Below, piece by piece: positions 1,341 to 60,223 of a DNA stretch of 64,000 nt. The notes below the pieces were generated by a model, which saw only the letters and a program-made list of their open reading frames with translations, was not told where the DNA came from and did no database searches. How positions within the stretch are numbered: the first letter of the stretch is position 1; the number at the start of each line of letters is the position of its first letter. The stretch covers positions 1-64,000 of the IMG/VR virus record IMGVR_UViG_3300013121_000037. One strand, given 5' to 3'. Both the position numbers and the translations under genes were made by a program. This stretch comes from a virus. Its lineage: Duplodnaviria; Caudoviricetes.

Positions 1341-1467
1341 GCCCACAGAGTGACGCAAACCACCGCCCTAACGCAAGTTTTCAGCAAAATTTCAGCCAAC
1401 AAAAAAGCCACTGCGCAAAATGCAACTGTTACATTTTGCGCAGTGGCTACCTGGATGCTGGGTCAGA

Positions 1468-1704
1468 TCACTGACCGGGCAGGTCAAACACCGGCAGCGC
1501 GCGGGCAATCCCGGCACAGGACCAGAACATGACCTGCTCCAGATTGGTCAGGACCAGCGAAAGTTCCCGCCCCTCGGGCACCAGTTCCGTCAGACGGTGG
1601 GCCAGCGTCCGGCACTGCTGCCGTACCTCTTCCATCTGCGCGGTCTGGTCCGCCTGGAGTGACTGGCTGGCAAAATCGTGATTGATACGCTGGTTCAAGT
1701 CCAT
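1468..1704 (-). CDS. Acb2/Tad1-like hairpin-domain protein (candidate immune-signal sponge)
   Basis: Motif VPEGRELSLVLTNLEQVMFWSCAGIAR matches the RExSLAxTxLEEAxxWAxAxIAR family pattern; GGAGCAGG RBS before ATG 1704. Confidence 0.6.
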   Translation of the reverse strand: MDLNQRINHDFASQSLQADQTAQMEEVRQQCRTLAHRLTELVPEGRELSLVLTNLEQVMFWSCAGIARALPVFDLPGQ

Positions 1705-1761
1705 GAGATAACCTGCTCCCGTCAACAAGGGTCCAGAAACGTGGTACGTCATGCGACTCAA

Positions 1762-1953
1762 CTACCGCTGTTCCTTGTTCCTGACGACTGGAGCAGGTTG
1801 CTTTACCTGCACGGCGATCCTGAACTGCAAAAAGGATTGACCTGTTGTCAGGTTGCAGTTTCTGTCCACCTGATAATCCAGCACACCACCCACACGCGGT
1901 TCCATGTCAGCCAGCACTGCATTCACATTCGCCTTCAATTCTGCAAAATCCAT
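1762..1953 (-). CDS. small hypothetical protein
   Basis: 63-aa ORF with AGGAGG RBS. Confidence 0.55.
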   Translation of the reverse strand: MDFAELKANVNAVLADMEPRVGGVLDYQVDRNCNLTTGQSFLQFRIAVQVKQPAPVVRNKEQR

Positions 1954-1964
1954 AAAACCCTCCT

Positions 1965-3830: not shown

Positions 3831-3937
3831 ATCTGCTACCCCACGGTATTGCTGGCCAGTCAAAGCAAAGCAACCGCAAGAGTAGAAGATGGGAAAGTCT
3901 TAAAGCAAACGAAGTGTGCAGTCTAAGGTGAGCAAAA

Positions 3938-4660
3938 CTAGACAGTAGCATTTTGCGCAGCAACCTGCCGGGCATGGCGCAGACAGGCATCCGAAAGGTT
4001 TGCCAGTGCCTGGTCGCGCGTCGCAGGCCAGGTCCACTCACATTTTTCCTGACTGGTGGTTACCAGGATGTTGTACAAGACTTCAGGCAAGTGATTATTC
4101 ACTTGCCTATGTTCCTGCTCCCAGAAGAATGCCCAGTATTGCCGGTTGGATCGCTCTGTCAAAAACGGTTCCTTGTCGCTCAACCAGACCTTTTGTACCG
4201 GGCATTGCTGGACAATGGCCGGACCATGTTCCAGCCAGTCGCCACACAGACAACGCACCATTTCGACAAAACCACGGCAAAACCGGCAACCAACGACATA
4301 CCCGGCATACTGATACCGTACCAGGGCAACTTCGGGCAGATACTGCACTGGCAACCACGGCCCCGGCAGGTCACACCATTGCCGACAGTACTGCTGCAAC
4401 AACTCACGCTCACGCTGCCGCAACCGGCACCAGATACAGGGACGGTCGTTTTCCAGCAAACGGCGGCATTCGCACAATTCCCGATAGCGCGGGTTGGTTT
4501 CCTGCCAGGCAGTCAACCGGGCAATCTCACACTGCACCCGGATAAACTCGGCACGCTCTGGCTGTCCGTGTTCCTCCAGCCAGTCGGCAAAAATGAGGCG
4601 TGGCGCGTCAGCAGCGGGATCGTCCAGAATGGCTGCCAGCAAACCGACTTGCTCGGTCAT
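3938..4660 (-). CDS. TIGR02996 domain protein (copy 1)
   Basis: LLAAILDDPAADAPRLIFADWLEEHGQPERAEFIRVQC; stop codon lies inside 33-bp repeat. Confidence 0.85.
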   Translation of the reverse strand: MTEQVGLLAAILDDPAADAPRLIFADWLEEHGQPERAEFIRVQCEIARLTAWQETNPRYRELCECRRLLENDRPCIWCRLRQRERELLQQYCRQWCDLPGPWLPVQYLPEVALVRYQYAGYVVGCRFCRGFVEMVRCLCGDWLEHGPAIVQQCPVQKVWLSDKEPFLTERSNRQYWAFFWEQEHRQVNNHLPEVLYNILVTTSQEKCEWTWPATRDQALANLSDACLRHARQVAAQNATV

Positions 4661-4711
4661 CGTCTTTTCTCCAACACACTGCACAAAACTAGACAGTAGC
4701 ATTTTGACCAG

Positions 4712-5530: not shown

Positions 5531-5563
5531 GGTGATTGCTCCATTTGCTGCGCAAAACCTTCT

Positions 5564-5902
5564 TCACAAAACAGTAGCATTTTGCCCAGCGCGATAACGC
5601 AGGCAGGCTGCACCACCCACCTCGAACTCGCGACAGATGTCGGGTCGATGCTCGTAATGGCGGCAGCAGTGGGCGTCCTGGTCGTACCAGACACAGGGCG
5701 AACCATCTGCCGGTCCCTGCCAGTGCCCACTGTTGAGCCAGCGCTGGTAAGTGGTCTGCACATCGTCTTGCAGATGTGCAGGCAAGGTGGCGATGGTGCC
5801 GAAAACACGGTGGTAGGTGATCGGCAACCCCGCCTGCGTTTCACAGCACAACCCACACCCCTGGCAGGATACCACCAGCGGCAACTCAATTCTTTTGCTC
5901 AT
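5564..5902 (-). CDS. YkgJ-family CxxCxxCC cysteine-cluster protein
   Basis: CQGCGLCC...CVWYD...CRHYEHRPDICREF. Confidence 0.8.
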   Translation of the reverse strand: MSKRIELPLVVSCQGCGLCCETQAGLPITYHRVFGTIATLPAHLQDDVQTTYQRWLNSGHWQGPADGSPCVWYDQDAHCCRHYEHRPDICREFEVGGAACLRYRAGQNATVL

Positions 5903-6489: not shown

Positions 6490-6553
6490 GACTCGCCCCC
6501 AATAAAAGCAGGTGGGCAAAACTAGACTGTTCACTTTTGCCCACCTGAACCTA

Positions 6554-7428: not shown

Positions 7429-7671
7429 TCACTCCTGCTGTAACCAGAACAGTTGGCACGCTGGGCGTATGGTTCTGCTCAGGTCTTTCTCATGCCGGAC
7501 CAGACCACGCTGCTTTAGAGCTGTCAGTAATTTTCTGCCGCTATTGGGACTGGTGGCACCTACCGACAGCATCACCTCGCGTATGGTCACCGGTCGCCCG
7601 GCCCCCAGGATAAACCCCAGCGCCTGTAACTGTCTGCTGGTAAGAACGCCACGCCCACGCAACTGTGCCAT
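7429..7671 (-). CDS. LexA-like winged-helix DNA-binding domain protein (no peptidase domain)
   Basis: LTSRQLQALGFI...PVTIREV...SPNS...LTALKQRGLV...RTIR. Confidence 0.7.
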   Translation of the reverse strand: MAQLRGRGVLTSRQLQALGFILGAGRPVTIREVMLSVGATSPNSGRKLLTALKQRGLVRHEKDLSRTIRPACQLFWLQQE

Positions 7672-7962
7672 GTGCCAATCACTCCAAGAAAAAGCCATCC
7701 CAGAGCAGACGTTGAACCTGCCAGTCGGCACCAGCCAACCGTTGCCTCGACACGCAATCTGGGAGGTGCTTCCCTTACTGGCAATTCTAATGCCAATTAC
7801 GTGCCAATACCATTCGCTAACCACTGCGCAAAAGTAGACAGTTGCATTTTGCCCGGTACTGTACACCAATACAGTGTTGTGCGCTGGAGAGGTTTACCGT
7901 AGAATCTATCCCGCTGGTTGAGGATTGAGGTGTTGAGAAAAAGCAAGCGGGGTGAGCAGAAC

Positions 7963-8487
7963 ATGGGACGCCAGGAGCATCCGGCAGTGAAAGCGAAAAA
8001 ACTGGTCGCCAACTTTGGTCCGCGTCTGCGCGAATTACGCCAGCATCGCGGCTGGTCCATGCCCATGCTGGAGACAAAATCCGGTGTCCTCGGTGCCAAT
8101 ATCAGTGACCTGGAAATCAATGGCACCGAACCCACCTGGACCACTGTTTTGAAACTGGCCCTCGCCCTGGACATCAACCCCATGGAGTTCACCACCCCTG
8201 CCGGTAACCTCCCACCCCATCCTGACCTGCCCAAAGCCGGACGCCCCATCGAGGAACCGGACTGGTCGAAAATCTATCCCCGCCATGCCACCCAGAAAAC
8301 CCGCGCCGCCAGCCTCCTGCGCAACCTGCGCCTCCAGCGCCACCACAGCCAGGCAGCGGTCGGCAAACTCATCGGCGCCGACCAGGCCAAAGTCTCCGCC
8401 ATGGAGCGCGGTCAGGCCGCCCTCAACACCATCCTCCACGCCATTGAGATGCTTGGTGGCGATGTCAGCGAATTTGCGGAGAAGTAG
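7963..8487 (+). CDS. XRE-family regulator with two HTH domains
   Basis: FGPRLRELRQHRGWS...ISDLEING and LRNLRLQRHHSQAAVGKLIG...VSAMERG. Confidence 0.8.
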   Translation: MGRQEHPAVKAKKLVANFGPRLRELRQHRGWSMPMLETKSGVLGANISDLEINGTEPTWTTVLKLALALDINPMEFTTPAGNLPPHPDLPKAGRPIEEPDWSKIYPRHATQKTRAASLLRNLRLQRHHSQAAVGKLIGADQAKVSAMERGQAALNTILHAIEMLGGDVSEFAEK

Positions 8488-8545: not shown

Positions 8546-10573
8546 CTACCCCGTCAATCGTAAATCCCCCCGATACCACTTCACTCGCTCCTGCCAGTGC
8601 TGTTCGGCCCGCTTTCGGCGGTCCCGCAGCACCTGGTCAGTAGTGGGTGCAGAGTGGAAAGAGGGATAGTTAGATTCCGGTGTGGAGTGGTCTGGGTCTG
8701 ACTGGTGGAGTCGCAACCCGGGTGTGGCGACAGCGGCAAACTCGATGATGAGTCCGCAAATATAGTGATTGCCGATACCCGTCTCCTCACCGGGATCACG
8801 AAAGCCTCTGCGCACCGGCATCAGGATGCCCACCTCCACCAGCATCCGGCGAATGGCCACCTGATGATTGGCATAGTTGGCGATACCCACCATCTCCAGC
8901 AACCTGCCCAGATAGGTCAGGGAAAGTTCGTGATACTGTTCCACGTTGGCACAGACCAGACGCAGCAGATCCTCTGCCTGCTGGCGGGAACAGTGGGCGG
9001 TGAGCATGATGGTTGGTAGCAGTGATAGCATAAATGGTGTCCACACAATTTCCCGTGCTGGTGCGGGTTCATGTTTTCCTTTGGCCCGGTGCCAGGTCGA
9101 TGGATCCAGCACCCGGAAACCACTCTGCTGCCAGGCATCGGCAGCATGCTCTAACTTCTCGGTCGAACCTTCCGGGTCAGACTGGTAACCGTTGTTCTGC
9201 CAGATCGCGGTGGCAGTGTTGTTGACCACCCGCTCCAGTTCCGGCAGGCCACCGTTGTTCCCGGAAAGGCGGTCGCTGAACGATTTGTGGGGCAGGTCGT
9301 TCAGAAAACCCAGGATGGCCGTTACCGCTTCTTCCTTGCTCTCGCCCTGTGCCCAGGCCATGCGCAGGGCCACCACCAGATACTTGCCTAAACTGTCCGG
9401 TTCGGCCTGCAACTTACCGGTGAGAAAATCCACAATGACCTGCGCACAGCGGCCCTCCAGTCTGGGCATGTTGCCCATGCCGCTGGCTGCTGACTGGTCA
9501 AAAGTAGACAGTCGAGTTTTGCGCAGCGGTGGACTGTCCGGGCAGTTGGAACAGGCAGCCAAAAGTTCCTGCTCCACCACGGTCAGGTTGCACGGTGACC
9601 GGTTCGGGTTGGTGAGCCAGGTCCAGTACGCGACGGCGTCATGGGCCAGATAGTCCACCTTGTGGCGGTCCTCACCCTGGCCCGCAAACCGGTAAGCGGG
9701 AATTTTTGGGACAAGCAACTGGTCGATGATGGCGGGTCGGGTGGGGAAGAGTGGCAGAAACACCGCCTGCAGGTTATCGGGATAGATCTCGACACCAGCC
9801 AGCCCGGGACAGTTTCGGCGCAGGTCGCCCACCCACTCCTGTACCTGCTCTAGGCGCCACAGTTCGGGCAGGACCAGGCCAACATGGCAGCTGCCATTGC
9901 CCGGATTCAGATTGGCGATATGGGGTGCCAGGTCGGCATGGTAACTTTGCAGGTAGGTCAGGATGGATAGCACCCGCTCACAGTGCCAGGTGGCTTCCAC
10001 CGCGCCGCCGTGGCGGTCGATGTCGAGCAAAAGGTGCCGGGTTGCCCAACCCTGCCGCACCCCCTCGTGTGCCAACCCCTGGCGATGCCGCCGCAGGTCC
10101 AGAAACCCGCTGACCGTGCGAACCTCCCGCCCCTGCTCGTCATAGAGGCCGCGAATGTGCTGGCGGTCACTGCCCACCTTCCAGAGATGCCTGAGTAATT
10201 CCCACGCCTCACCCTGGCGATACTGGTCGATGGGAACCACACTGCTCGCGGCATAGAGGTTGACCCAGGTGGCCTGAGCGGAGTGTTCGAGGTGCTGTAT
10301 CTGCTGGAGGTCGGCAGCGGTGGGTGGTGCGGCAGTATTGAGTCGGTAGCGCAGGTCCCGAACGGTGGCCGCTGGGACAGGTGCTTCGGGACAGCGGCGC
10401 CAACCGGTGGGCCACTCGTGCAGCAGCAGCAACTGGCCACTGGAGTCACCAGTAACCCGCTGACCGGCCTGCAGCCAGTCCAGACGGGTACGCCCCACAG
10501 ATTCCGCGGCCCGTGCCGAGAAAAAACCTGGTTGACCTGTTGACGTTGGGAGGGGGATGATTGTAAGATTCAT
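8546..10573 (-). CDS. probable AEP-type primase-polymerase / replication protein
   Basis: hhhDhD (LLLDID), sxH (GNGSCHV) and VEIYP motifs in N-terminal half; contains in-frame 33-bp repeat. Confidence 0.55.
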   Translation of the reverse strand: MNLTIIPLPTSTGQPGFFSARAAESVGRTRLDWLQAGQRVTGDSSGQLLLLHEWPTGWRRCPEAPVPAATVRDLRYRLNTAAPPTAADLQQIQHLEHSAQATWVNLYAASSVVPIDQYRQGEAWELLRHLWKVGSDRQHIRGLYDEQGREVRTVSGFLDLRRHRQGLAHEGVRQGWATRHLLLDIDRHGGAVEATWHCERVLSILTYLQSYHADLAPHIANLNPGNGSCHVGLVLPELWRLEQVQEWVGDLRRNCPGLAGVEIYPDNLQAVFLPLFPTRPAIIDQLLVPKIPAYRFAGQGEDRHKVDYLAHDAVAYWTWLTNPNRSPCNLTVVEQELLAACSNCPDSPPLRKTRLSTFDQSAASGMGNMPRLEGRCAQVIVDFLTGKLQAEPDSLGKYLVVALRMAWAQGESKEEAVTAILGFLNDLPHKSFSDRLSGNNGGLPELERVVNNTATAIWQNNGYQSDPEGSTEKLEHAADAWQQSGFRVLDPSTWHRAKGKHEPAPAREIVWTPFMLSLLPTIMLTAHCSRQQAEDLLRLVCANVEQYHELSLTYLGRLLEMVGIANYANHQVAIRRMLVEVGILMPVRRGFRDPGEETGIGNHYICGLIIEFAAVATPGLRLHQSDPDHSTPESNYPSFHSAPTTDQVLRDRRKRAEQHWQERVKWYRGDLRLTG

Positions 10574-10638: not shown

Positions 10639-10856
10639 TGCCTTTTCAGCACTTTACCCCACAGCCATTTCCCAGTTCCAGCACTCGCGGAAACCCGGAT
10701 TGATAGCGAAAGTTGTGCCATGCAACCGTAGTGAACAGGTGGTTACTGCGCAAAAGTAGACAGTTGCATTTTGCGCAGCAGGCGATTGCGGACACGGCAC
10801 AGGCGCTGTACCCTGACTGGTGGGGTGAGAAATTTCTACCTGTCGAGGGTGTGGTC

Positions 10857-13431: not shown

Positions 13432-13455
13432 TCCTGCTGCGCAAAACTAGACTGT

Positions 13456-16296
13456 TTAGTTTTGCGCAGTTGCTTCATTGTTACGCCTGCTCTGATGCCG
13501 CTGCACCACGGAAGGAGCGCGGTTCTCAACTCCTGGCATCGAACCACGCACACCGCTGCTTTGTCCCAGTTTGCCCTTGAGATCACGCAGTTCCTTGCCA
13601 TTGTCCTTGAGGGTGCTCAGGATTTCCTTCAGCACTCCCAGGATTTCCCCGGTGTTGAGGCCCCGGCCAGCCCCACCTTGCGTATCACGGAACAGGTCAC
13701 TGCCCGCCAGGCCCACCCGCCGCTGCTCCAGCAGAGTGCCGGACGAACTCAGACGCGCCGCTGGTGGCAGCGGCCCACCACCGCTGCTGGCCACTCCAGT
13801 CACAGCGTCAGTCAGTGCTGCGGTCACTGGTTCTGCCACCACCCCGCCAGCAGCAGCAGCACCTGGAGCAGATACCGGTGCTGGTGTCATGGTAGCGGGT
13901 GCCGCCGCTAACCGTGGTGTGGGTTGTGCTGCTACTGGCGTGCTGGTAGGTATTTGCACACGACCAGGGCGCTGCCCGGCCATCTGAACAACAGACGGTC
14001 CAACGCGGTCAGGCAGGCCACCAGCACGCCCATGATTGGTAATAGCCGGGACAGTTAGCGCTGCTCGTTGTGGCCGCACAGTGGCGGTCTGTTCAGAAGT
14101 GCCAGGGGTAGCACTTGCCAGTGTTTTCGGCAACGGCACCTGACCTGGAATTGTGCTGGTGTCGTGAGCAACCCGTCGTGCGGACTGGTGTTCTACTGCG
14201 CTGGTGGGTAGGGTAACTGTCGGCACTGGCACGGAAGCAACGCCGCTGGCGTCAGAAAACTGCGCTGGCACTGGTGCTGGAGTCAACAATTCCGGAGCGG
14301 TTAGTGATGTTCGTGGTGGCGCACCTACCTGTTCGCCAGCAGCAACCACTGCTGGCCGATCCACGACTGTATCTGTCGTGTCGCTGGCAGGGTGCTCCAG
14401 CGCAGTGGTGGTGGCCAACCTGCCAGGCGTGCGTGCCGATTCATGGTTTGACTCTCCAGTTACCTGCCCCGGCAAGCGGAATGGACTGCTCTCTGGCCAG
14501 GAAGAACCAGCAGAAACGGTCAACCGCTGTGGTTGAAGTGCTTCAGTCGCGACTCCCGGTTCTTGCTGAGTAGCAACCACACGCTCACCCGGATCGACCA
14601 CCGCTTGCTGCGCTTGACCGCCCGTATCAGTCGTCCCTGCCGCATACCGGTGTCTGGGGTCCAGTGGATCGGGATTCAGGTTCTCGGCATGCTTGATCTG
14701 GGTGGGTTCAAAGGCAATCACCACCTGATGCTCGTCAACGCCCGGAACTTTCTGACCGGGACGTGCCCCGAACTGTCCCTTGTGGGTGATACCATCAAAC
14801 CCTTGCGACTGCAGCCACTTTTTAGCCTGGGTTTTGCTACCAAAACCACCCTGTTCTGCAGCACCGCTCAGTTTTTCGTACAGCCATTTTCCAGTTGGCT
14901 GGGCATCCGGATTATCCTGTCCCTGAAACTCACGGGTAAGCGCTGTGCTAATCTCCTCTGGCAGTTTGTCGTACAGGTTTTTGGGCAACGGTGCGTCAAT
15001 GTCGAACGGATTCTTGACACGCAGGTAAGCCGGGAGTACATGCCCTTCCGGTTCCGTAAACAGGTCGGTGGTACTGGCGCCGTAGGTGGTCTGCTTGAAA
15101 CCTATCCTGTCAACAGGCCGAACCGAGTTGGACTGGGAGGTAACTACCCTTTCCAGATCGGACAAATCCTCTGCTCGCTCCAGCAGTTTCAGTCGCTCTA
15201 AAGCATCCCCCCATCTTTTTTCGATGCCGTATATCACGTCTTCCAGGTGAGCGTATCTTTTGTAAAGTTCCTGGTCACCACCAGGATTGTCGCTAGTTAT
15301 GGAGTCCTTGAACGCAGCATACGCGGCAATTTGAGCAGTTTTGGTAGCAGCAATTTTGGGCAACGCTTGCGCCTGCGCAGACTTCAGTATTTCCCTGAGT
15401 CTTTCCTTCGCCACTGCTGGCGGAACCAGCCACTCCTTCACACCAACAGATTGCGTCAGGCCACTGCTACGCTTCTGGTAATCCCTGGCGATTTCTTCGC
15501 GGTCTGTAAAGTAGAATCCTGGTCCATACAGCAGGTTTTCTGGATTACTCAGTTTTTCCAGATCAAATTTTTCAAACTCGTCCCACGGCGAACCGTGAAA
15601 CATCTTGCGCGGTTTACCTTCCTCCGTGACAATCTTGCTGTCACCAAACCACGCCCGTTGTGCTGGCGAGAGATTGTCCACCCGCTCGCCAGGGTCCACC
15701 ACGGCCCGCTTCCCAGCACCGGTGTCAGTGGTGCCTGCCGCAAAGCGGTGCGTGGCCGGATGCGTGGCATCGCTCTGACGCTGCTGCAGTTCCGCAGTGG
15801 CAGCCGCGACGGCCAGCGGTTCCAGTGCTGGCGGCACCTGTCGTGTTTTCTCAGCCAGGTCCCGGGGCAACACCACCGAATGCGGTGCCAGGTCCGCCAG
15901 CACCGGTTTTGGTCCCACATCCCGCTGGCCCCCACGCATATCCCGCACCCGTTCCTGTGGAGCAGGTGGTTCCAGGTGAGCACTGCTTATGCCAGCGGGT
16001 GGTGGCTCCAGTGTGGCAGTTGTGTTCAGCCAGTCGGACAAGCGTTCAGGATGAACCAGCAACGGCGATTCGTCGGGAGTGACCGCAGAGGACAGACGCT
16101 CCGAGGGGAAGGAACGCAGCAGTGCGGCCAGTGCCGGCCCAGGCATTCCTGAATTATCCGGTGGTGCCTGGGTGGGCAAACTGAGGCGCTGCTGGTCAGG
16201 AATTTTCTCGGGAAGTGCGAGGTTTTTTCGTGGCATGCGCTCACCAGTGTGACTTGGCCTGCGCCCGGTTTCGCGCCGCGGCATCGGTGAACTCAA
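13456..16296 (-). CDS. tape-measure-position protein carrying an ART-PolyVal-like ADP-ribosyltransferase domain
   Basis: WFGDSKIV...MFHGS...GPGFYFTD...PAYLRVKNPF...GFDGI...IAFEPTQIK; located just after tail chaperones. Confidence 0.65.
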   Translation of the reverse strand: MSSPMPRRETGRRPSHTGERMPRKNLALPEKIPDQQRLSLPTQAPPDNSGMPGPALAALLRSFPSERLSSAVTPDESPLLVHPERLSDWLNTTATLEPPPAGISSAHLEPPAPQERVRDMRGGQRDVGPKPVLADLAPHSVVLPRDLAEKTRQVPPALEPLAVAAATAELQQRQSDATHPATHRFAAGTTDTGAGKRAVVDPGERVDNLSPAQRAWFGDSKIVTEEGKPRKMFHGSPWDEFEKFDLEKLSNPENLLYGPGFYFTDREEIARDYQKRSSGLTQSVGVKEWLVPPAVAKERLREILKSAQAQALPKIAATKTAQIAAYAAFKDSITSDNPGGDQELYKRYAHLEDVIYGIEKRWGDALERLKLLERAEDLSDLERVVTSQSNSVRPVDRIGFKQTTYGASTTDLFTEPEGHVLPAYLRVKNPFDIDAPLPKNLYDKLPEEISTALTREFQGQDNPDAQPTGKWLYEKLSGAAEQGGFGSKTQAKKWLQSQGFDGITHKGQFGARPGQKVPGVDEHQVVIAFEPTQIKHAENLNPDPLDPRHRYAAGTTDTGGQAQQAVVDPGERVVATQQEPGVATEALQPQRLTVSAGSSWPESSPFRLPGQVTGESNHESARTPGRLATTTALEHPASDTTDTVVDRPAVVAAGEQVGAPPRTSLTAPELLTPAPVPAQFSDASGVASVPVPTVTLPTSAVEHQSARRVAHDTSTIPGQVPLPKTLASATPGTSEQTATVRPQRAALTVPAITNHGRAGGLPDRVGPSVVQMAGQRPGRVQIPTSTPVAAQPTPRLAAAPATMTPAPVSAPGAAAAGGVVAEPVTAALTDAVTGVASSGGGPLPPAARLSSSGTLLEQRRVGLAGSDLFRDTQGGAGRGLNTGEILGVLKEILSTLKDNGKELRDLKGKLGQSSGVRGSMPGVENRAPSVVQRHQSRRNNEATAQN

Positions 16297-17420: not shown

Positions 17421-17576
17421 TGCCTCTCTCCTCTATCTGGAATCTGCCCCGGCAGATCTGTCAACAAAGGTCTGTTCCAGATAGCGAAGATGGCATAAGC
17501 ACCCGTCCTGAATCCAACGGATTGCCAGCAGCGATGTCAGGCACTGCGCAAAAGTAGACAGTCGCATTTTGCGCGG

Positions 17577-19116: not shown

Positions 19117-19181
19117 CGTGCTGCGCAAAACTCGACAGTTTAGTTTTAACCAGTAGTGTACGCCAATACACCAGAAAATCG

Positions 19182-20862: not shown

Positions 20863-20895
20863 CTGCGCAAAATGCGACTGTCGCATTTTGCGCAG
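20863..20895. repeat. 33-bp palindrome, fully symmetric example
   Basis: CTGCGCAAAA-TGCGA-CTG-TCGCA-TTTTGCGCAG. Confidence 0.95.
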
Positions 20896-22844: not shown

Positions 22845-23055
22845 GGCGCTGCCTCTCTGGTTCCAGAAAAACAGCGAGGTCGCAGCGTTGCCGCCGCGAC
22901 CCCCTTACAGGCCACGAAGGATAAGGCTTCTCCCGGGTAATTAGGCCGGTTCAGCCTGCTGAAGCCGCAACGGCCACGTTGCGACCCCGCCAGATCTTTT
23001 TCAACTCTTCTACTCACTGCGCAAAATGTAACTGTCTACTTTTGCGCAGCACCGT

Positions 23056-26488: not shown

Positions 26489-26623
26489 GATTCTTGCACC
26501 ATATCCAGGTGACAGAGTTCAGGGTACGGCACCCCGGCCACGTCACTGAGAGTGCAGAAAAGGAAGTTCCTGTTGCAAATGGCTTTGAGACAGGTCGGCA
26601 GTACAGAGGAGAGGTGGGCAAAA

Positions 26624-27361
26624 CTAGACAGTAGCATTTTGTGCAGTGGCGGCTTTGGCCCACTGGAGACAGGCGTCACTCAACGGTGACAGTGCTGCTG
26701 TTTTGGTGGGCCACCAGATAAAGCGCGATTCTGTTTTTAGCCAGACAGCGTACAGTTCTGGCGGCAATCCGGCTAAATCACCAGGATCTGTACTGTAGAA
26801 GGCCCACCAGTAACCTTCAGTCCCGGTCAACTCAGACATCGCCCAGGCAGGTTCTACATCGCTTAAAGTGACACGTTCTACTGGATGCTGCCGCACGATG
26901 GCCGGTCCGTGCCGAATCCAATCGTCTTTGGGGCAGGCGACGGACTGAATAAAACCACGGCGAAAGACTGCCACGTCCAGCCAGGAAACACCCAGCAAGA
27001 TACCGGCACTGGTAAGCGGTTCCAGCCAGCGAAAGGCATTGGACTGGTACGCAAAGTCAGCACAGGGATTCGACAGCAGTATTGCTACACGTTGCCGCAG
27101 TTTGTCACGCTGCCACCACAAGTCGCGACGTTTGCCTTCGCGACAGCGCGGACAGGGAACGGTGGGATCTGGCAGGCACTGGCACTTGCCCAGCGTCACT
27201 ATCTCGTCATCCACCTGCGCCAGTTCGTACTGTACCCGGATGAACTCGGCGCGGTCCGGGTCGCCGTTCTCTTCTAACCAGTCGGCATAGATCAACCGCG
27301 GCGCATCCTCTGCTGGTGCGTCCAGAATGGCTTGCAGCAATGCCTGGTGCTGTGAGATCAT
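26624..27361 (-). CDS. TIGR02996 domain protein (copy 2)
   Basis: LLQAILDAPAEDAPRLIYADWLEENGDPDRAEFIRVQ; stop inside 33-bp repeat. Confidence 0.85.
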   Translation of the reverse strand: MISQHQALLQAILDAPAEDAPRLIYADWLEENGDPDRAEFIRVQYELAQVDDEIVTLGKCQCLPDPTVPCPRCREGKRRDLWWQRDKLRQRVAILLSNPCADFAYQSNAFRWLEPLTSAGILLGVSWLDVAVFRRGFIQSVACPKDDWIRHGPAIVRQHPVERVTLSDVEPAWAMSELTGTEGYWWAFYSTDPGDLAGLPPELYAVWLKTESRFIWWPTKTAALSPLSDACLQWAKAATAQNATV

Positions 27362-30956: not shown

Positions 30957-30989
30957 CTGGTCAAAACTAGACAGTCTAGTTTTGACCAG
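30957..30989. repeat. 33-bp palindrome, fully symmetric example
   Basis: CTGGTCAAAA-CTAGA-CAG-TCTAG-TTTTGACCAG. Confidence 0.95.
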
Positions 30990-39463: not shown

Positions 39464-39589
39464 CGTCTCGTCTCCTCTGACAGATGCCTGCCAGAGTAGA
39501 CGAAAACGGAATCCAGTGAGAAATGCGGTCCGAGATGAGCACTGCGCAAAATGTAACTGTCTACTTTTGCGCAGTGCCAGTGGAATGGG

Positions 39590-45811: not shown

Positions 45812-45957
45812 TTGACGGCAGACCGGGAATGTACCAGAATGGACGGCGAACAAGGGGGAAATGAGCGAGCCAGAGGTGCCACCCGCCTCTGGCTCGCTGG
45901 CGTTTTATTCACAATTCCTGGTTGCAACTGGCAGGTCACTGCGCAAAATGCTACTGT

Positions 45958-46650
45958 CTACTTTTGCCCAGCACTGTCTTTGGCCCACTGGAGACAGGCC
46001 GCGGACATGATTTCTATGGCCGCAACCCTGGAATGGTATTCTCTGGGAAGTTGCTTACGCAACCGGATCAGATACTGTTGTAATGGTTCCGGGATAAAGA
46101 ACTGCTGCCCCCACCGTGCGGAGAAAAGCCAATAATACATATCCAATTCAGGGTTATTACTTTCTGGACCAGTGAACGGTTCCTGGCTGCCACTTAGGCG
46201 GTGCCGCTCTGCTGCCCCCAGTTGCCCCATCTGAAACGGTTCCTTGTCACTCAGCGTGACTTCCTGCACCGGTTGCTGCCGCACGATGGCCGGACCATGC
46301 TGGAGCCAGTCAGAGCAGGTACAGGTGACAGAGCAAACGAACCCACGAGAATATGTTGACGTGAATCCTGGTAGACGCACACCCCAGCGACAAAAGTCTT
46401 TCCCTAACAACTGTTGTTCACGCATCCGCAGGCATTTTTCCTCGCGGTCAGCATCCTGGTTACCCGTCGCCACAGGTTGCCCATCTGGCGGCACCCCGAA
46501 CCGCGCCGCCAGTTCGCACTGCACCCGGATAAACTCCGCCCGCTCCGAATCACCATGTTCATCCAGCCAGTCCGCATAGATGAGACGTGGAGCATCCTCG
46601 GATGGTTCCTCCAGGATGGCTGCCAGCAATGCCTGCTGCTGTTCGCTCAT
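45958..46650 (-). CDS. TIGR02996 domain protein (copy 3)
   Basis: LLAAILEEPSEDAPRLIYADWLDEHGDSERAEFIRVQC; stop inside 33-bp repeat. Confidence 0.85.
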   Translation of the reverse strand: MSEQQQALLAAILEEPSEDAPRLIYADWLDEHGDSERAEFIRVQCELAARFGVPPDGQPVATGNQDADREEKCLRMREQQLLGKDFCRWGVRLPGFTSTYSRGFVCSVTCTCSDWLQHGPAIVRQQPVQEVTLSDKEPFQMGQLGAAERHRLSGSQEPFTGPESNNPELDMYYWLFSARWGQQFFIPEPLQQYLIRLRKQLPREYHSRVAAIEIMSAACLQWAKDSAGQK

Positions 46651-47121: not shown

Positions 47122-47648
47122 AATCTCATCGCTAGTCCCGTCAACTCAATCCAACCCCGGAATATCCCAACGGTTCAATGCCGCTTCCAGTTCCTGTATC
47201 CGGGCCTGCAAGCGGGCATTCTCGTCCCTCTCTGCTGCCAGCAGGCGAATGTACGCAGGCAACGCCATGCGTGCGAGTGCCATGAAAACGCCATCCTCAT
47301 GACGATGCACACTGGGAGGTGTGGTACGCAGCATCCCTGACTGGTCAGGATTGGTGCGATGCAGTGGACCTGGTCCATACAGGTACACGTTGGCCGTGAC
47401 GTTAGACCACGCTACCTGCCACGGTCCCGGTATCGCCATTACCTGCACTCCCTGTCACTGCGCAAAACTCGACTGTCTACTTTTGCCCACCTGCTATGAC
47501 CATCGCACCCGTCTGTACCTGCGCCGCAGTCGCTTACCCTGCACTGGCAGGACGCGGGCAGGTTTGTCCCACTGGCGACAGCGGCGAATCTCTGCCACTC
47601 GCCGCCGCGTTTCTGCCAGTTTGTACCCGCCACGGGAGCGTGTACCCA

Positions 47649-49518: not shown

Positions 49519-50227
49519 GGTTCACCTTCCAGGTAGACGAATACCTAACAGCGTTAGCACCAGCACCACCGGGGCCAGCAAGGACAGCGACAACCAGAAC
49601 AGCAGCACGGCGTACCAGGGGGCCAGACCACCACCCAGCACCTTGCCCATGTCCGTGCGAATCTGCTCGAAATGGCGGGCCAGCAGGGTTGCCAGCATCA
49701 GCACCAGGCCACAGTACACCCCGCCAAGAAACCACCACCACTCAGGTACCACCACCACCTCCGTTTGTTCTGTCCGCCAGCACGCTGGCACCGCGTAACC
49801 GCTGTACTTCCTCATGCAAAACATGCAACTCAGCACGAGCAATAATAACAGCATCCTGCAACCGCTCCCGATCGGCGTTAGCCAGTGACTCCCGTTCCTT
49901 GTGCAGGTTGACCTGCGCACGCAGCGTTTGCACCTCTGCCTGGAGTTCATGGCACTGCCGGACCACGGCATTCTTCGCCTCGGTCACTGCGGCCAGTTGC
50001 TGCGAAGTTTCAGAGTGACAGGCAAAGCAGATGCACTCTCCCTGCGTCCCCTGCAAGCGAAGCCCCGAGCAAAGTAAACAGCGTCTGTGCATGTTTCACT
50101 CCTCCACTGATCAAAATGCGACAGTCTAGTTTTGCGCAGTTGACTGTATCAGGGTGTTTCCATTAGGGGTCAAATCGCACCTGAAACAGGTCCGCTGCGC
50201 AAAACTAGACTGTTGCATTTTGACCAG

Positions 50228-51106: not shown

Positions 51107-51164
51107 CGCTGACTTCTCCACTGCGCAAACGTAGACTGTCGAGTTTTGCACACCTCTCACCAAT

Positions 51165-53259: not shown

Positions 53260-53381
53260 AGAGAAACGGCGTGAATTTGTGGTTATTCATCACCCGCCTG
53301 TCCCATGATGAATACTGGCCATTTTACCAACTGGTGCTTGCCATGTCACACCGCACAAACTGCTGCGCAAAATGCTACTGT

Positions 53382-54119
53382 CTACTTTTGCGCAGTGGTT
53401 GGTTTATCCTGTCGGCACTGCGCACAGCAGACGTGGTCACCGAATACCAGATCGGCGCGGGGATAGTCCGCCCCACAATAACAGCAGTGTTCAATCTGCC
53501 CGTCCAGTCGCCAGAGTGCTGCCGCCACCCATTCCGGTGTGCGTCGGGAGCGGGACTCTGGCGAGAAACCGTACCACGTTTCCAGGTACATTTCGCACTG
53601 CCGCCGCAACTGACCGATTTCGTCCAGGGTCAGTTGATGCAGATTCACTGTTGCTGGAGAACACGCTGGAGTGGGTTGCTGGCGACCGCGGTCTTCAGGT
53701 GGGCGTTTGCTACCCGGTGGGTTGCGCCGGCCAAAGTCACCTTCGCTGCCATCGGTCTGCCAGGACTCGTGGTAGTAGGGTAAATCCGGGTCTGGCATCA
53801 TCAGGAGTCGCACAGGTGGCGTCCCCAGGATGGCCAGGTAACCAGCATGGTCATCAATCAGGATGTCGATATGGTGCTCCTGGCAGACCACCGCCTTGCA
53901 GCGTTCGCCATGAGTTTCGTAGTCGGCACAGATGACTTGCTGGGGCGGAACAGCAAACCCGTTATCGTGGCAGAAAGTGGTGGCTTTCTGGTGTGGCTTC
54001 ATGTCGCTGATAACGAACACCTCGAGCTCAGAGGAAAGCAGCAGGACTTGCACCAGCGGTCGGAAGATGTCCGGGTATTTGGACAGGCACCCGCCAATGT
54101 CGAAAGCAATCCGGGTCAT
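53382..54119 (-). CDS. HAD-superfamily (5'-nucleotidase-like) protein
   Basis: IAFDIGG motif I variant, K and ILIDD motif IV. Confidence 0.55.
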   Translation of the reverse strand: MTRIAFDIGGCLSKYPDIFRPLVQVLLLSSELEVFVISDMKPHQKATTFCHDNGFAVPPQQVICADYETHGERCKAVVCQEHHIDILIDDHAGYLAILGTPPVRLLMMPDPDLPYYHESWQTDGSEGDFGRRNPPGSKRPPEDRGRQQPTPACSPATVNLHQLTLDEIGQLRRQCEMYLETWYGFSPESRSRRTPEWVAAALWRLDGQIEHCCYCGADYPRADLVFGDHVCCAQCRQDKPTTAQK

Positions 54120-54187
54120 CTGGTTTTCCTCTTCCTGCGTGCTGCGCAAAAGTAGACTGTTGAGTTTTGACCAGTGGGTGGTATCAC

Positions 54188-55242: not shown

Positions 55243-55925
55243 GACGAAATTCCTCTCTGGATAGTCAGGATAAATCGCGCCGGGCATCCTGGGGATGGTG
55301 CAGTTCCTGGCACTGCGCCGCCCGCTGCTGCAAAACCTGCCAGTATTCCGTGGTCCCGGGCAAATGTTGGGTCGGTTCCGGTTTGCTGGCCACGACATTG
55401 TCAAGCCCTGCCCCTCGCATGTTGCTCCGGCAAACCAGATGGCCAAACCGTGTCAGTACCGCAGGATCGTGATAACAGGTCCAGCACAATTGCCGGGGCC
55501 GATTGGCCACCTTCTGCTGACAGTTCCGGCACTGCGGTTTCACTGCGGACAACTCCATTTTGAAAAACGTCGGCACCAGGCACCCAGTACAACTATTTAT
55601 GGCGGATTTCCTGCAAAATTCGGTTGGCAATCCATCCCAAAGATTTGAACAGTTTGCTCCGGTCGCCGTACAGGTCTGGATAAAGCACCGTATGAGCGAG
55701 GTAGGTGCTGGCACATACCTCGCAAAACCAGAAATCATCATGGTTTCCTTCTGCCCAGCGCTCCGTCCCCTCACCGCGATAGTTTTTCAGCGGGATGCCG
55801 CGAAAACCACAGCACTCACATTCTCCTGGTGACTCTGTAGTTTGTTCCTGCTCACCCATGACAAAAACTCCTCTCCACCATTCACTGCGCAAAAGTAGAC
55901 AGTTGCATTTTGCGCAGTGAGCAGG

Positions 55926-57056: not shown

Positions 57057-58970
57057 GATAATTCCTTGCCGGTTTTGAGTCGTTCCAGGTCGCGTTCCGC
57101 CCGCAAGAGTGTGTCCACCCAGGGTTCGCCTGGCTGCTGCTCGGCCAGGTCGTGGTGCCAGACCGAACCACCATAGCCGTAGTCGAGTACAAAACTCCAG
57201 CGCAGAGTATGACTGGACAGGTGCAACCGCACCGCCACGATTTGCCGCGCCCGCCGGTGAGATTGGTTGAGTTGCACCGCCAGTTTTCCCTGCGCTTTCA
57301 GGAGGGATGTCAGTCGCTGTTCAATGACAGCCTGACTCCAGGGAGCATCCTGGTAACCGTAATGCGGAAACCAGATACGCTGCTGGCCACCCACCCGGAT
57401 GTCGAACGCCTCCCGCCAGGCGTCCACCGAGTCGTTGCCAATGTCCAAAAGGGCGTAGTGAAAACGCCGCTTCAGGTCGCCCAGACTGACCACGGGCCGA
57501 ATGCTGGTCATGCCAGTGCAGGTGGGTTGGCACGATAACAGCGCCTTGACAGCGTGGGCCACCCAGGGTTGCCGCTGGCGCTCGGGCGTGTCCAGTTCCT
57601 GGGCCGAGCGCACCATCCAGGCCAGCACCCCAAGTGCCTGCTCAACGCTGTAGGGATAGGGCCAGTAGCAACCAGGGCGCACCAGTTCCACGAAGTGACA
57701 GGTAACACAGCGTTTGAGTTTGCTGAGCGCTGGCATCACTCCATCCTCTCTGCCAACCGGGTACACTCGGGTTGCGACCAGGCCACCCGCCAACCAAATA
57801 GAGACTTTGCATGCTGCCTTCCTGATAGCACATGCCATACCACCACCACAGCATTTCCCAGAGGAGAGTGCTAAATCCAGAAGTGCTCACTGCGCAAAAT
57901 GCAACTGTCTACTTTTGCCCACTCACTCAGCACCCTGCAACTCCAGCAGGCGCAGCACTCCCGCCGAATCCAGGTGCTGTTCCAGCAGGAAAATCACCTC
58001 TGGCAATTCCTGCTGCGGCACCAGTCGCAACACCTGCGCCGCCACTTCTGCCGGACTGCCCACCAGCACACCAGTTGCCTCTCTGCCGCCGAGCAGCGGC
58101 GCAGGTGACTTCTGGACCACTGCTACCTCTTTCGCTGGCAGATGGGCATCCCGCAGCGCCAGGAACTCTGCAATTGCCTCTGCACTGACTACCTTGCCCA
58201 GCAAACACCGCCGCCATCCCGACTGCAATGGCCAGGACACCCCAAGCACTTCCAGCTGCTGCCGGTTCCAACCACCATTCCGACTCATCCCCTCTTCCAG
58301 CAACTCCCGCGTTACCACTGGCATACCAGCACCTCACTGGGCAAAAGTAGACAGTTGCATTTTGCGCGATTTGTGGAAATTTTCGATGAAATTTGTGCGG
58401 ATTTCCGTGCGCACTTCTAGCGCTAGCTATTTCTTTGTCTTCTGGTCTGAGAAGACCTGTCGTGTTATCTAGCACATCATGTACCACTGAGAAGAGTAGT
58501 GGTCTGCTCCCAAAATCCTTCGGGTTCGCAGGCGGGCGCACCGACCCCGTGCGGAGTCGGTGCAAGTGGTCAAAATCCCCCTGGGACGGCAGTTCGGTTC
58601 GACCTTCCGGGGACCGGTTGGGGTTGCCAACCATGTGCCAGGACAGTGCTGCCTGGCGTGGTTTTTTAACGCTGTTCACCCGGAATTCGCACCCGTCACA
58701 GCGTCCATCGTGAGCGTTTGTCAGACCGTTTCGGCAGGCACATCTGACCGATGGAATACGAACAACCTTGACCCTTGGCGCTGTACTTGTTTGGACTTCA
58801 CCAGTCCCTTTGCCTCGGCTGTCGGTGGGTCAGATACCGTTTCCCAAATGGTGGGTGTCGTTTTGACTTCAGCAGTATCCCGCACCCGGCAACAGGCTTT
58901 TGGGATGTGCTGGTGGTCAAAATGCGACTGTCGCATTTTGACCACTGGTTAGTCGTGGCCAGAAACAAAA

Positions 58971-59052
58971 TCAGCCATTGTTTCCAGCAGTGTGACCTGC
59001 GAGTCCACCCTCACGACAGAGGTGATTCGCAACTGCTGGAAACAATGGCTGA
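58971..59052. other. long hairpin with perfect 21-bp outer stem
   Basis: TCAGCCATTGTTTCCAGCAGT...ACTGCTGGAAACAATGGCTGA with additional inner pairing. Confidence 0.8.
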
Positions 59053-59108
59053 GAGTGTATTCTCAGTGTCGTGATGCTGCTTTTCAAGTGCCGGTCAATA
59101 GCACAGAA

Positions 59109-59855
59109 TCAGAATTTACCCGAAGCGTCATCCCCGTGCAACCGACGCTGCTCTACAAAATCGATAATTTCTTTGGGCACGAACATGCCGGGCATGTAGT
59201 TGGTGCCCTGGTAACGAAACGGCAGCAGGACGCGGGTAACACCGTTCTCGGTGCGCAGGCAGCGTGCGGTTGGTTCGCGGCGCTCCAGTTCTGCCAGCAC
59301 TGCCGCTGCCTGCCGGTGACTGTACCCGGTCGCAATGGCCTCGGAGATACCATACTGCAACAGGCGTTTCAGTTGCATATCGCTGACACGCTCCCGCGGC
59401 GAAAAGGTAAACGGTTCATCCGCCTTCAGTTCTACAGGATTTCCGGATAACTCAGCAACGAGTTCCGCCAGGTTGCTGTTCTTTTCCTGTCGGACAGTGT
59501 TGAGCAACTCTTCCGTCAACTCATACGCCCGCTTCTCTGTCAGGTTGGTGGCAGTAACCCCCAATTGTTTCAGCAACTCCATCTGCCACTTCAGTGCTGG
59601 TCGCTGGTCGCTCAGGCCGACTGCAACCGGTTCCGGTTTCTTACCGAAACTGACCACATGCGGCACTGCCACGGTTTTCTCGGGTGCTGGTTTCAGCCAG
59701 GTCGTTGCCAGTACACTGTCCAGCAGTTCGCCGTTGCGGCCATGCCAGAGACAGCGGCAGGTTGGTCCGTCCCGGTGAACTTCGGCCACCGTCATCCGGG
59801 GACCGCCGGACTTCAGTTGTACCACGTCACCCACCGCGAATTTCACTTCAGCCAT
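59109..59855 (-). CDS. YodC/DUF2158 N-terminal domain protein
   Basis: FAVGDVVQLKSGGPRMTV. Confidence 0.65.
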   Translation of the reverse strand: MAEVKFAVGDVVQLKSGGPRMTVAEVHRDGPTCRCLWHGRNGELLDSVLATTWLKPAPEKTVAVPHVVSFGKKPEPVAVGLSDQRPALKWQMELLKQLGVTATNLTEKRAYELTEELLNTVRQEKNSNLAELVAELSGNPVELKADEPFTFSPRERVSDMQLKRLLQYGISEAIATGYSHRQAAAVLAELERREPTARCLRTENGVTRVLLPFRYQGTNYMPGMFVPKEIIDFVEQRRLHGDDASGKF

Positions 59856-60223
59856 CGACTCACCTCGCTTCTGCTGCGCAAAACTCGACTGTCTACTTTT
59901 GCCCACCTTGATCAGGAATGCGATTCACTGCTGCGCAAAATGCAACTGTCTACTTTTGCGCAGTTACTCCAGTTCCCAGCCAGCGGCAACCAGTTCGTCA
60001 TGGGTGATGACTGCCACTTTCAGCAACTGGCAGGTGCAGACAAAGAAACCGCTGGACACAACATAGGTCACCGCCTCGATCCGAAACACCCGGCCAACCC
60101 CTGGAAATGGCACATTATCGAGTTGGCAGGCCAGTCCTGGGAAGGGCGGGAACGGCAAACGGATACGCTGTTCGTAGACGTGTCCCGTGGGCGCCACAAT
60201 TTTGCAGTGAACAGGGAAGCCGC

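What the first reader, a model, noticed from the sequence alone, without database searches (positions are those of the whole stretch)
1411..59963. Genome-wide family of 35 33-bp palindromic sites marking gene and module boundaries
Seen: STG-NN-CAAAA-N4-A-CWG-T-N4-TTTTG-NN-CAS recurs 35 times, and no gap between copies exceeds about 4.4 kb from 1.4 to 60 kb. Five stop codons abut the 33-bp boundary exactly (ORF ends 4712, 17577, 50228, 57923, 59964). Seven more genes take their stop from inside it (3938, 5564, 13456, 26624, 31382, 45958, 53382), giving several QNATV or QK C-termini. Its length of 11 codons allows in-frame residence. It is absent from the TnpB element. Inference: it is either a recombination site defining gene cassettes (integron-like but not attC) or a dispersed binding site for a dimeric phage protein (stoperator/parS/genome-organising). 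I recognise no described element with this consensus, and no recombinase is encoded in the window.
Basis: partly seen in the sequence, partly recalled or inferred. Interest (0 to 1): 0.93.

Follow-up and report, generated by a model that had tools for sequence, protein, structure and literature searches.

The report
Phage-wide 35-bp palindromic sites
An uncultured temperate phage, probably of Planctomycetota, carries about 55 evenly spaced copies of one 35-base near-palindrome just after its genes' stop codons; they look like docking sites on double-stranded DNA for a phage protein, but their job is untested.

Summary
The window holds 33 copies with at most 2 mismatches (0 expected), two 42-bp variants with a 9-bp insertion, and one degenerate copy. 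The whole 112-kb viral contig holds about 55. The unit is really 35 bp: R-STGNNCAAAA-N4-AC-W-GT-N4-TTTTGNNCAS-Y.

No such family turned up in IMG/VR, JGI metagenomes or GTDB genomes, so it is not a host REP or MITE. A related phage carries a different 35/36-bp palindrome at the same two gene junctions. Positions are kept while the sequence changes in concert.

Arm mismatches are G·G or C·C, not wobble pairs, and only 24 of 55 stems are perfect. Both core orientations occur. This fits recognition of double-stranded DNA, not an RNA hairpin.

The inner 13 bp is a directional unit, heterotypic in 44 of 55 copies. Spacing is more even than chance. Thirty-six of 55 copies lie within -23 to +33 nt of an upstream stop codon.

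Best reading (confidence 0.4): stoperator-like, gene-end docking sites of a phage DNA-binding protein, homogenised by gene conversion. A lox- or dif-like recombination role is not excluded.

It is a new variant of a known kind. Other windows of this scan noted the same repeat.

The parts
1411..1443 (.). site, exact; 25 nt after stop of 1468-1761(-)
3928..3960 (.). site, exact; supplies the stop of 3938-4702(-) (ends ...QNATV)
4679..4711 (.). site, exact; abuts the TAA stop of 4712-5530(-)
5548..5589 (.). 42-bp variant with a 9-bp insertion in the 3' half; supplies the stop of 5564-5902(-)
6512..6544 (.). site, exact; 22 nt before the likely start of the 5899-6489(-) gene
7824..7856 (.). site, 1 mismatch; in the divergent region between the LexA-DBD-like gene and the XRE gene
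9494..9526 (.). site, exact; inside ORF 8546-10573(-), read in frame 1
10746..10778 (.). site, exact; in a divergent intergenic region
13437..13469 (.). site, exact; supplies the stop of 13456-16296(-)
17544..17576 (.). site, 1 mismatch; abuts the TAG stop of 17577-18176(-); lies between two core genes that are adjacent in relative L062
19121..19153 (.). site, 1 mismatch; in a divergent region; followed after 3 nt by the 14-mer box
20863..20895 (.). site, exact and nearly perfect palindrome; between two + strand genes
23017..23049 (.). site, exact; 6 nt after the stop of 23056-23445(-), upstream of the likely capsid gene
26614..26646 (.). site, exact; supplies the stop of the TIGR02996 paralog 26624-27361(-)
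28133..28165 (.). degenerate copy with 4 mismatches; 6 nt after the stop of 28172-28474(-)
30957..30989 (.). site, exact; between + strand genes
31379..31411 (.). site, 1 mismatch; overlaps the stop of 30996-31382(+)
31956..31988 (.). site, exact; in a convergent region, 33 nt after the stop of 32022-32579(-)
35531..35563 (.). site, exact; in frame 1 inside the 2295-aa polyvalent ORF
37223..37255 (.). site, exact; in frame 1 inside the 2295-aa ORF; its flanks are paralogous to those of 41554 and 42909
39542..39574 (.). site, exact; 15 nt after the stop of 39590-39787(-)
41554..41595 (.). 42-bp in-frame variant with a 9-bp insertion, decayed
42909..42941 (.). site, exact; in frame between the portal domain and the ART domain
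45939..45971 (.). site, exact; supplies the stop of the TIGR02996-family paralog 45958-46650(-)
47458..47490 (.). site, exact; 18 nt before the start of 47146-47439(-)
50107..50139 (.). site, exact; second of a close pair; 14 nt before the next ATG
50195..50227 (.). site, exact; abuts the TAA stop of 50228-51259(-)
51121..51153 (.). site, 1 mismatch; 11 nt after the terL stop; relative L059 has its own palindrome at this junction
53363..53395 (.). site, exact; supplies the stop of 53382-54149(-)
54142..54174 (.). site, exact; 13 nt after the stop of 54188-54586(-)
55885..55917 (.). site, exact; 8 nt after the sliding-clamp stop; relatives L066 and L069 have their own palindrome at this junction
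57890..57922 (.). site, exact; abuts the TGA stop of 57923-58324(-)
58337..58369 (.). site, 2 mismatches; 12 nt before the start of 57923-58324(-)
58913..58945 (.). site, exact and nearly perfect palindrome; intergenic
59874..59906 (.). site, exact; second of a close pair; 18 nt before the next ATG
59931..59963 (.). site, exact; abuts the TAA stop of 59964-60227(-)
7429..7698 (-). small winged-helix protein with a LexA-type DNA-binding domain; candidate binder, untested
7918..8487 (+). XRE-family protein with two HTH domains; candidate binder, untested

Best explanation
The 35-bp elements are docking sites on double-stranded DNA for a phage-encoded sequence-specific protein. That protein would be a dimer or a two-domain pseudo-dimer. 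The protein's identity, its binding and any roadblock effect are inferred; nothing was tested at the bench.

Each half-site has invariant patches (TG, CAAAA, AC) around a dyad. Some positions require only the type of base pair: S at positions 1 and 4, W at the centre.

The sites stand about every 2 kb, directly after stop codons and ahead of the next gene's RBS or regulatory region. A few stand in divergent control regions, one of them between the two HTH regulator genes.

The most likely job is genome-wide transcriptional insulation or silencing of this temperate phage. Bound protein would block RNA polymerase at gene ends, as the stoperators of Cluster A mycobacteriophages do.

The copies are probably kept alike by gene conversion between sites. 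Because the arms are inverted repeats, conversion can copy the directional core in either orientation. This would explain chimeric arms, both core orientations, and the wholesale change of the consensus in a related phage.
For: - The family is far beyond chance and specific to this phage: 33 copies in the window against 0 in shuffles; no such repeat family in IMG/VR, JGI metagenomes or GTDB genomes.
- Only 24 of 55 copies have a perfect 10-bp outer stem. The mismatches are mostly G·G, C·C, T·C and G·A at positions 1, 4 and 5. Only 3 G·U-type pairs occur inside the 10-bp arm, so pairing is not protected while half-site identity is.
- Outer hexamers co-vary only weakly (24 against 17.7 expected). 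The inner N4 anti-co-vary.
- Both core orientations occur relative to transcription, 36 to 19. Recognition of double-stranded DNA allows this; loop-specific RNA recognition would not.
- Four sites lie in divergent intergenic regions where no transcript ends. One lies between the LexA-DBD-like gene and the XRE gene.
- Spacing is more even than a random choice of gene boundaries: CV 0.61 against 1.0 under the null, with none of 20,000 simulations as low.
- The phage is temperate: it has a tyrosine integrase and HTH regulators.
- A relative (TerL 84%, clamp 62% identical) has a 35/36-bp palindrome with arms ACTGCTCAYCG at the same two junctions, after terL and after the clamp gene. Cluster A stoperators and their repressors co-evolve in a similar way (PMC6550527).
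- Precedents exist: stoperators (PMC9283540) and the 17-bp palindrome of Cluster O phages (PMC4351075).
Against: - No binder has been identified, and no binding or transcription data exist.
- A 35-bp site is long for a repressor operator.
- The tight tie to upstream stop codons is not predicted in detail by a roadblock model. Median distance is 2 nt, and 9 sites abut the stop exactly.
- The heterotypic directional core (44 of 55, p = 4e-6) needs an asymmetric binder or a historical explanation.
- Stoperators are 13 bp, asymmetric and oriented with transcription. These sites are neither short nor strictly oriented.
- Relative L067 lacks sites at two junctions where this phage has them.
Confidence: 0.4

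Rival explanations
1. The sites are recombination sites or linkers that define gene and domain modules. The inverted arms with a directional 13-bp core would work as lox- or dif-like sites for the phage's Xer-like tyrosine recombinase. Alternatively they would serve as 35-bp homology patches for its Rad52-type annealing protein. Either way, whole genes and in-frame effector domains could be exchanged between genomes.
For: - The architecture recalls loxP or FRT: inverted arms around an asymmetric core whose centre base tracks the X/Y order.
- The arms are chimeric.
- ORFs end at or inside the site, and the next gene often starts 10-25 nt after it, as in compact cassettes.
- Five sites punctuate a 6.5-kb accessory block between terL and portal. 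Those genes are adjacent in L060 and separated by only three small genes in L062.
- All in-frame copies use the same frame and separate paralogous effector modules.
- In relative L069 the genes after the clamp-site junction differ from ours.
- The contig encodes a Xer-like recombinase and a Rad52-family protein.
- Recombination between dispersed palindromes has been documented in Cluster O phages (PMC4351075) and for PeSLs (PMC2839356).
Against: - Sites of both orientations are intermingled, so an active recombinase would invert or delete essential DNA.
- + strand gene blocks are not bounded by inverted site pairs.
- The 2-gene indel in L069 has a site on one side only.
- Sites also stand between core genes where nothing is inserted (17544, 23017).
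- A 13-bp core is longer than the 6-8-bp crossover regions of tyrosine recombinases (background knowledge).
- The recombinase is not an integron integrase.
Confidence: 0.22
2. The sites work as RNA. They would be intercistronic hairpins at the 3' ends of genes that terminate or attenuate transcription, protect upstream mRNA, or are cut by an RNase, like the RNase III sites of T7.
For: - Thirty-six of 55 sites lie within -23 to +33 nt of an upstream stop codon.
- The site stays with the upstream gene (terL, clamp) in a relative even when the downstream genes differ.
- Perfect copies fold at -22 to -32 kcal/mol, z -6 to -7.
- Canonical terminators are not enriched in the tested stretch 45-64 kb, so another 3'-end signal could be in use.
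- The relative's copies are near-perfect hairpins.
Against: - Thirty-one of 55 stems carry non-wobble mismatches.
- Some copies do not fold better than shuffled sequence (37223: z +1.0).
- No T-run follows the stem.
- The unpaired core is conserved yet occurs in both orientations.
- Four sites lie in divergent regions.
- No Rfam family matches.
Confidence: 0.15
3. The sites are a selfish miniature palindromic element, REP- or MITE-like, that spread through the phage genome and is tolerated only at gene ends.
For: - Many copies are identical 33-mers.
- Copies fall into subfamilies, and half-sites behave as inherited haplotypes.
- Two variants carry 9-bp insertions and look decayed.
- Relative L067 lacks sites at two junctions.
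Against: - No Y1/HUH transposase is encoded.
- The two TnpB genes have no TnpA partner, and no site lies in or beside either gene.
- The host-scale scans found no copies.
- No conserved flanks or target duplications extend beyond the 35 bp.
- Spacing is more even than random.
- Positions are conserved in a relative whose consensus has changed.
Confidence: 0.1

Closest known systems
Stoperators of Cluster A mycobacteriophages (L5, Bxb1; PMC6550527, PMC9283540)
   Same: They occur as dozens of copies of one site, about one per 2 kb. They lie in short gaps between genes of a temperate phage. The site consensus changes together with the phage lineage. One copy lies in the immunity control region.
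   Different: Stoperators are 13 bp and asymmetric. A monomeric repressor binds them, and they are oriented with transcription. The sites here are 35-bp near-palindromes with a directional core that occurs in both orientations. Their binder is unknown.
17-bp palindromic repeat of Cluster O mycobacteriophages (TGTTCGGNNNCCGAACA; PMC4351075)
   Same: It has dyad symmetry and more than 30 copies. It is absent from the host and from other phages. The centre is weakly asymmetric with no strict orientation. Some copies lie in coding regions. Recombination between copies has been seen. Its function is unknown.
   Different: It is half the length, has invariant arms and no combinatorial half-site alleles. 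A third of its copies lie well inside genes. Here only 5 of 55 lie inside ORFs, and most hug stop codons.
PeSL cassettes of T4-type phages (PMC2839356)
   Same: About 50 intergenic elements per genome lie between a stop codon and the next Shine-Dalgarno sequence. They mark plastic regions and mediate module shuffling.
   Different: A PeSL is a sigma-70 promoter plus a terminator stem-loop of variable sequence. No promoter consensus lies in or beside these sites, and the sequence itself is conserved.
loxP/FRT and pdif sites (dif modules of Acinetobacter plasmids; PMC6449649)
   Same: They have inverted arms around an asymmetric centre and two kinds of half-site within one site. Many copies flank modules.
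   Different: Those sites are 28-34 bp with 6-8-bp spacers. pdif sites depend on host XerCD. Neither such dimensions nor any link to a recombinase is shown here.
REP/BIME elements with RAYT transposases
   Same: They are imperfect palindromes of about 35 bp at gene ends, in either orientation.
   Different: REPs are chromosomal, number in the hundreds and go with a Y1 transposase. None of these features was found here.

Membership tests
Integron attC / gene cassettes | An IntI-type integron integrase is present | tested here: not met
   The only tyrosine recombinase scores 39 bits against TIGR02249 (cut-off 265), over its C-terminal stretch only.
Integron attC / gene cassettes | All sites share one orientation in a co-directional array | tested here: not met
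   The core orientation splits 36 to 19 relative to transcription, and sites also lie in divergent regions.
Integron attC / gene cassettes | An inserted cassette has a site on both sides | tested here: not met
   The 2-gene indel in L069 has a site on one side only. This is a single case.
REP/RAYT (REPtron) | An associated Y1 (HUH) transposase is present | tested here: not met
   PF01797 has no match in six frames of the contig at E <= 1. The contig is only 79% complete.
REP/RAYT (REPtron) | Many copies occur in the host chromosome | tested here: not met
   An exact-pattern scan of 185,579 species genomes gave only single, unrelated hits and none in Planctomycetota.
Stoperator system | Many copies of one site lie in short intergenic gaps of a temperate phage | tested here: met
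Stoperator system | Sites are asymmetric and oriented with transcription | tested here: inconclusive
   The core orientation shows only a 36 to 19 bias (p = 0.03). The 3' arm is more constant than the 5' arm (18 against 5, p = 0.01).
Stoperator system | The immunity repressor binds the sites and blocks elongation | not testable with these tools
   This needs EMSA, ChIP and reporter assays.
Intrinsic terminator | A G+C-rich stem is followed by a T-run | tested here: not met
   No site was called by the terminator scan, and terminator-like hits equal the number in shuffles (17 against 16.9). The 3' flanks are TGA or CAG, not T-rich.
PeSL | A sigma-70 promoter is embedded with the stem-loop | tested here: not met
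   No promoter-like match lies in or next to the sites scanned.
ParB-parS-type dispersed sites | A ParB-family protein is encoded | tested here: not met
   PF02195 has no match.
Known RNA families (Rfam 15) | A match at the gathering score | tested here: not met
   There were 0 matches in the window.

The most novel reading that the evidence does not exclude
The sites form a phage-wide lox-like system. Inverted arms flank a directional 13-bp core. The sites sit at gene ends, and always in the same reading frame when they lie inside polyvalent effector proteins. This would let the phage's Xer-like recombinase or Rad52-type annealing protein swap whole genes and in-frame toxin domains between co-infecting genomes. 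It would be a dedicated cassette-exchange machine in a virus, distinct from integrons.
Probability: 0.15. Interest if true: 0.9.

Novelty: new variant of a known kind. Interest (0 to 1): 0.6.

Why it matters
Dispersed palindromes recur in phage genomes, and for most of them nobody knows the function. This family is unusually informative for four reasons.
- It is long, and its half-site alleles combine freely.
- It has a directional core inside symmetric arms.
- Its spacing is close to regular.
- A relative keeps the positions but has changed the sequence.

It therefore gives clear, cheap tests: which small phage protein binds the 35-mer, and whether binding stops transcription or promotes exchange. 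It does so in a lineage of Planctomycetota-type phages with no cultured member. If the sites prove to be recombination sites, they would explain how the phage's polyvalent ADP-ribosyltransferase effectors are assembled from modules.

Tried and rejected
- **Host REP or MITE:** rejected. The pattern scans found only single, unrelated hits.
- **Look-alike palindromes:** a low-GC family (CCATGGCCAAAATG..ACWGT..CATTTTGGCCATGG) in one set of metagenome contigs shares the core pattern. It has no other similarity to this phage, so I treated it as coincidence.
- **Close relatives in IMG/VR by portal:** none found.
- **The relative's arm motif in IMG/VR:** none found.
- **Public sequencing runs holding window 50001-60000:** none was listed and no RNA holder was listed. 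Read-level tests for nicks, circles or RNA ends could therefore not be run.
- **Rfam:** no match.
- **ParB:** none.
- **Y1 transposase:** none.
- **Promoter inside or beside the site:** a TTGTGC-17-TAGAAT that I read by eye right of site 7824 did not pass the promoter scan. I make no promoter claim.
- **Inversion of + strand blocks between inverted sites:** not supported.
- **Walking the relative's contigs further:** this ended at 3.7 kb.
- **Cultured relatives:** TerL is at most 30% identical to any deposited phage.
- **Distant relatives:** those with TerL about 52% identical (L060, L062) have no repeated palindrome family in the roughly 20 kb fetched from each.
Full report
**What is there**

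The window is the first 64 kb of a 112,344-bp IMG/VR viral contig, rated 79% complete by CheckV. It occurs 0 times in 100 shuffles.

Two more copies carry a 9-bp insertion, at 5548-5589 and 41554-41595. One copy at 28133 is degenerate. The family continues to the end of the contig, about 55 copies with at most 2 mismatches.

Aligned in the direction of transcription, the base before the site is always a purine. The base after it is a pyrimidine in 54 of 55 copies. The unit is therefore 35 bp.

**Where the sites lie**

Nearly all genes are on the minus strand.
- Thirty-six of 55 sites begin within -23 to +33 nt of the stop codon of the upstream gene on the same strand. The median is 2 nt.
- Nine sites abut the stop exactly. 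Nine overlap the stop codon, eight of them supplying it from their own TAG.
- The distance to the next start codon is much more variable, 10 nt to several hundred, median 78.
- Five sites lie inside called ORFs. Four of these are robust, all read in the same frame.
- Four sites lie in divergent intergenic regions, where no gene ends.
- Spacing is more even than a random choice of the same number of gene boundaries. The CV is 0.61 against about 1.0, and none of 20,000 simulations was as low.

**Anatomy of the site**

T2, G3, C6, A7-A10, A15, C16 and their mirror positions are almost invariant. Positions 1 and 4 are C or G on each arm independently, and position 5 is G or T.

As a result only 24 of 55 copies have a perfect 10-bp outer stem. 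The mismatches are G·G, C·C, T·C and G·A rather than wobble pairs. Outer hexamers co-vary only weakly, 24 matches against 17.7 expected.

The two inner tetramers avoid complementarity. They fall into two classes:
- X: TGCG, TGCA, TGTA, TGCT, CTCG
- Y: GTAG, CTAG, GTAA

Forty-four of 55 sites pair one X with one Y, against 27 expected (p = 4e-6). The centre base follows the X/Y order in 38 of those 44 (p = 4e-6). The site is thus a directional 13-bp core, X-ACTGT-Y', inside inverted arms.

The core occurs in both orientations relative to transcription, 36 to 19. The arm on the downstream side is more constant than the upstream arm, 18 against 5 discordant sites (p = 0.01).

**RNA or DNA**

Perfect copies would fold well as RNA, at -22 to -32 kcal/mol. 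Some copies fold no better than shuffled sequence. No T-run follows the stem, and canonical terminators are not enriched. Rfam gives nothing.

Four observations fit a protein reading double-stranded half-sites better than a hairpin:
- the stem mismatches are not wobble pairs;
- the 'loop' is conserved;
- the core occurs in both orientations;
- some sites lie in divergent regions.

**Origin and relatives**

The motif is not a host repeat. Pattern scans of IMG/VR, JGI metagenomes and one genome for each of 185,579 species gave only isolated, unrelated hits.

The host is probably a member of the Gemmataceae. The phage's sliding clamp is closest to Gemmataceae DnaN among named cellular proteins. 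A three-member paralog family, two members of which were scanned directly, carries the Gemmata domain TIGR02996. No cultured phage is close.

Distant relatives, with TerL about 52% identical, have no such repeat.

The closest relative is known only from short Logan contigs. Its TerL is 84% identical and its clamp 62%. After terL and after the clamp gene, at the same two junctions as here, it carries 35/36-bp palindromes with arms ACTGCTCAYCG...CGRTGAGCAGT. The one complete copy also has an AC-T-GT centre. The outer CTGC.C and the dyad are kept, while AAAA/TTTT has become AYCG/CGRT. Positions are therefore conserved and the sequence has changed in concert.

Another relative, L067, has a methylase 82% identical. 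It lacks sites at two junctions where this phage has them.

**Modules and recombination**

Five sites punctuate a 6.5-kb accessory block between terL and portal, which also holds a TnpB gene. Those two genes are adjacent in L060 and separated by only three small genes in L062. In-frame copies separate paralogous effector modules of the portal-ART fusion and the polyvalent proteins.

Three observations count against a strict cassette model:
- Sites also stand between core genes that are adjacent in L062, with nothing inserted (17544, 23017).
- In L069 a two-gene indel begins right after the clamp site but has no second site at its other end.
- + strand blocks are not bounded by inverted site pairs.

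The contig encodes a tyrosine recombinase (91311-92375) that is generically Xer-like, not an integron integrase. It also encodes a Rad52-family protein and two TnpB genes without TnpA. It has no ParB.

**Candidate binders**

Site 7824 lies between a small gene for a protein with a LexA-type DNA-binding domain and a divergent XRE gene with two HTH domains.

Three nucleotides to the right of this site, and of site 19121, lies the same 14-mer, TGTACRCCAATACA. The first copy lies within a CTGT-N8-ACAG box, the only one in the contig. These are leads, not evidence of binding.

**Verdict**

- The best-supported mechanism is sequence-specific docking of a phage protein on double-stranded DNA at gene ends. 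The most likely consequence is stoperator-like insulation or silencing (confidence 0.4). The copies are probably homogenised by gene conversion, which can flip the core because the arms are inverted repeats.
- A lox- or dif-like recombination role (0.22), an RNA hairpin role (0.15) and a selfish element (0.1) remain open.
- The closest known things are Cluster A stoperators (PMC6550527, PMC9283540), the Cluster O 17-bp palindrome (PMC4351075), PeSLs (PMC2839356) and pdif modules (PMC6449649). It is a member of none of them.
- Other windows of this scan noted the same repeat. Similar dispersed palindromes were also noted in other phages.

Noticed in passing
window 7860-7873 and 19157-19170: The 14-mer TGTACRCCAATACA occurs twice, each time exactly 3 nt to the right of a 35-bp site in a divergent intergenic region. 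The first copy lies within a CTGT-N8-ACAG box of the E. coli LexA type, the only one in the contig, and sits next to the LexA-DBD-like gene. It may be a second operator.
   Followed up: partly
window 32576-44672 (-): The Mu-type portal is fused to an ADP-ribosyltransferase domain. It is followed by a 670-aa ORF and a 2295-aa polyvalent ORF with ART and NUDIX domains. The modules are paralogous, and each begins after an in-frame copy of the site.
   Followed up: partly
window 44632-45717 (-) and contig 72921-74117 (-): Two diverged TnpB (Cas12f-like) genes are present with no TnpA/Y1 transposase anywhere in the contig. No 35-bp site lies in or beside either gene.
   Followed up: partly
window 3938-4702, 26624-27361, 45958-46650 (-): Three dispersed paralogs form one family. 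The first two matched the Gemmata-type TIGR02996 domain directly; the third is their paralog and was not scanned. Each takes its stop codon from inside a site. A second family of four paralogs lies at 4712-5530, 50228-51259, contig 64142-65230 and 100110-101012. Together with clamp homologs from Gemmataceae, this points to a Planctomycetota host.
   Followed up: partly
contig 83165-83445 and gene 83458-84186 (-), outside the window: A self-similar repeat stretch lies downstream of a 242-aa gene that earlier notes called Cas7/RAMP-like. Pfam and NCBIfam give no family for that protein. A CsrA-family gene is encoded somewhere in 64-90 kb, so a CsrA-sponge reading of the repeats deserves a look.
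   Followed up: no
contig 1-206 and 111768-111973: The two ends of the contig share a 208-bp direct repeat at 92% identity, inside paralogous genes. This is not a clean terminal repeat.
   Followed up: no
contig about 66720-66785, outside the window: A tandem repeat of GAGGAAGAAATT, 4-5 units, lies between site 66787 and the next start codon.
   Followed up: no
window 274-31652: One gene in this stretch matches the Acb2/Tad1 hairpin domain, an anti-CBASS/Thoeris sponge family (E = 1.6e-16). Others match DUF932, Lar and KTSC. I did not map which ORFs.
   Followed up: no
L059 1790-1819: The relative's terL contig ends inside its palindrome. This suggests that short-read assemblies of this phage group break at the repeated sites.
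   Followed up: no
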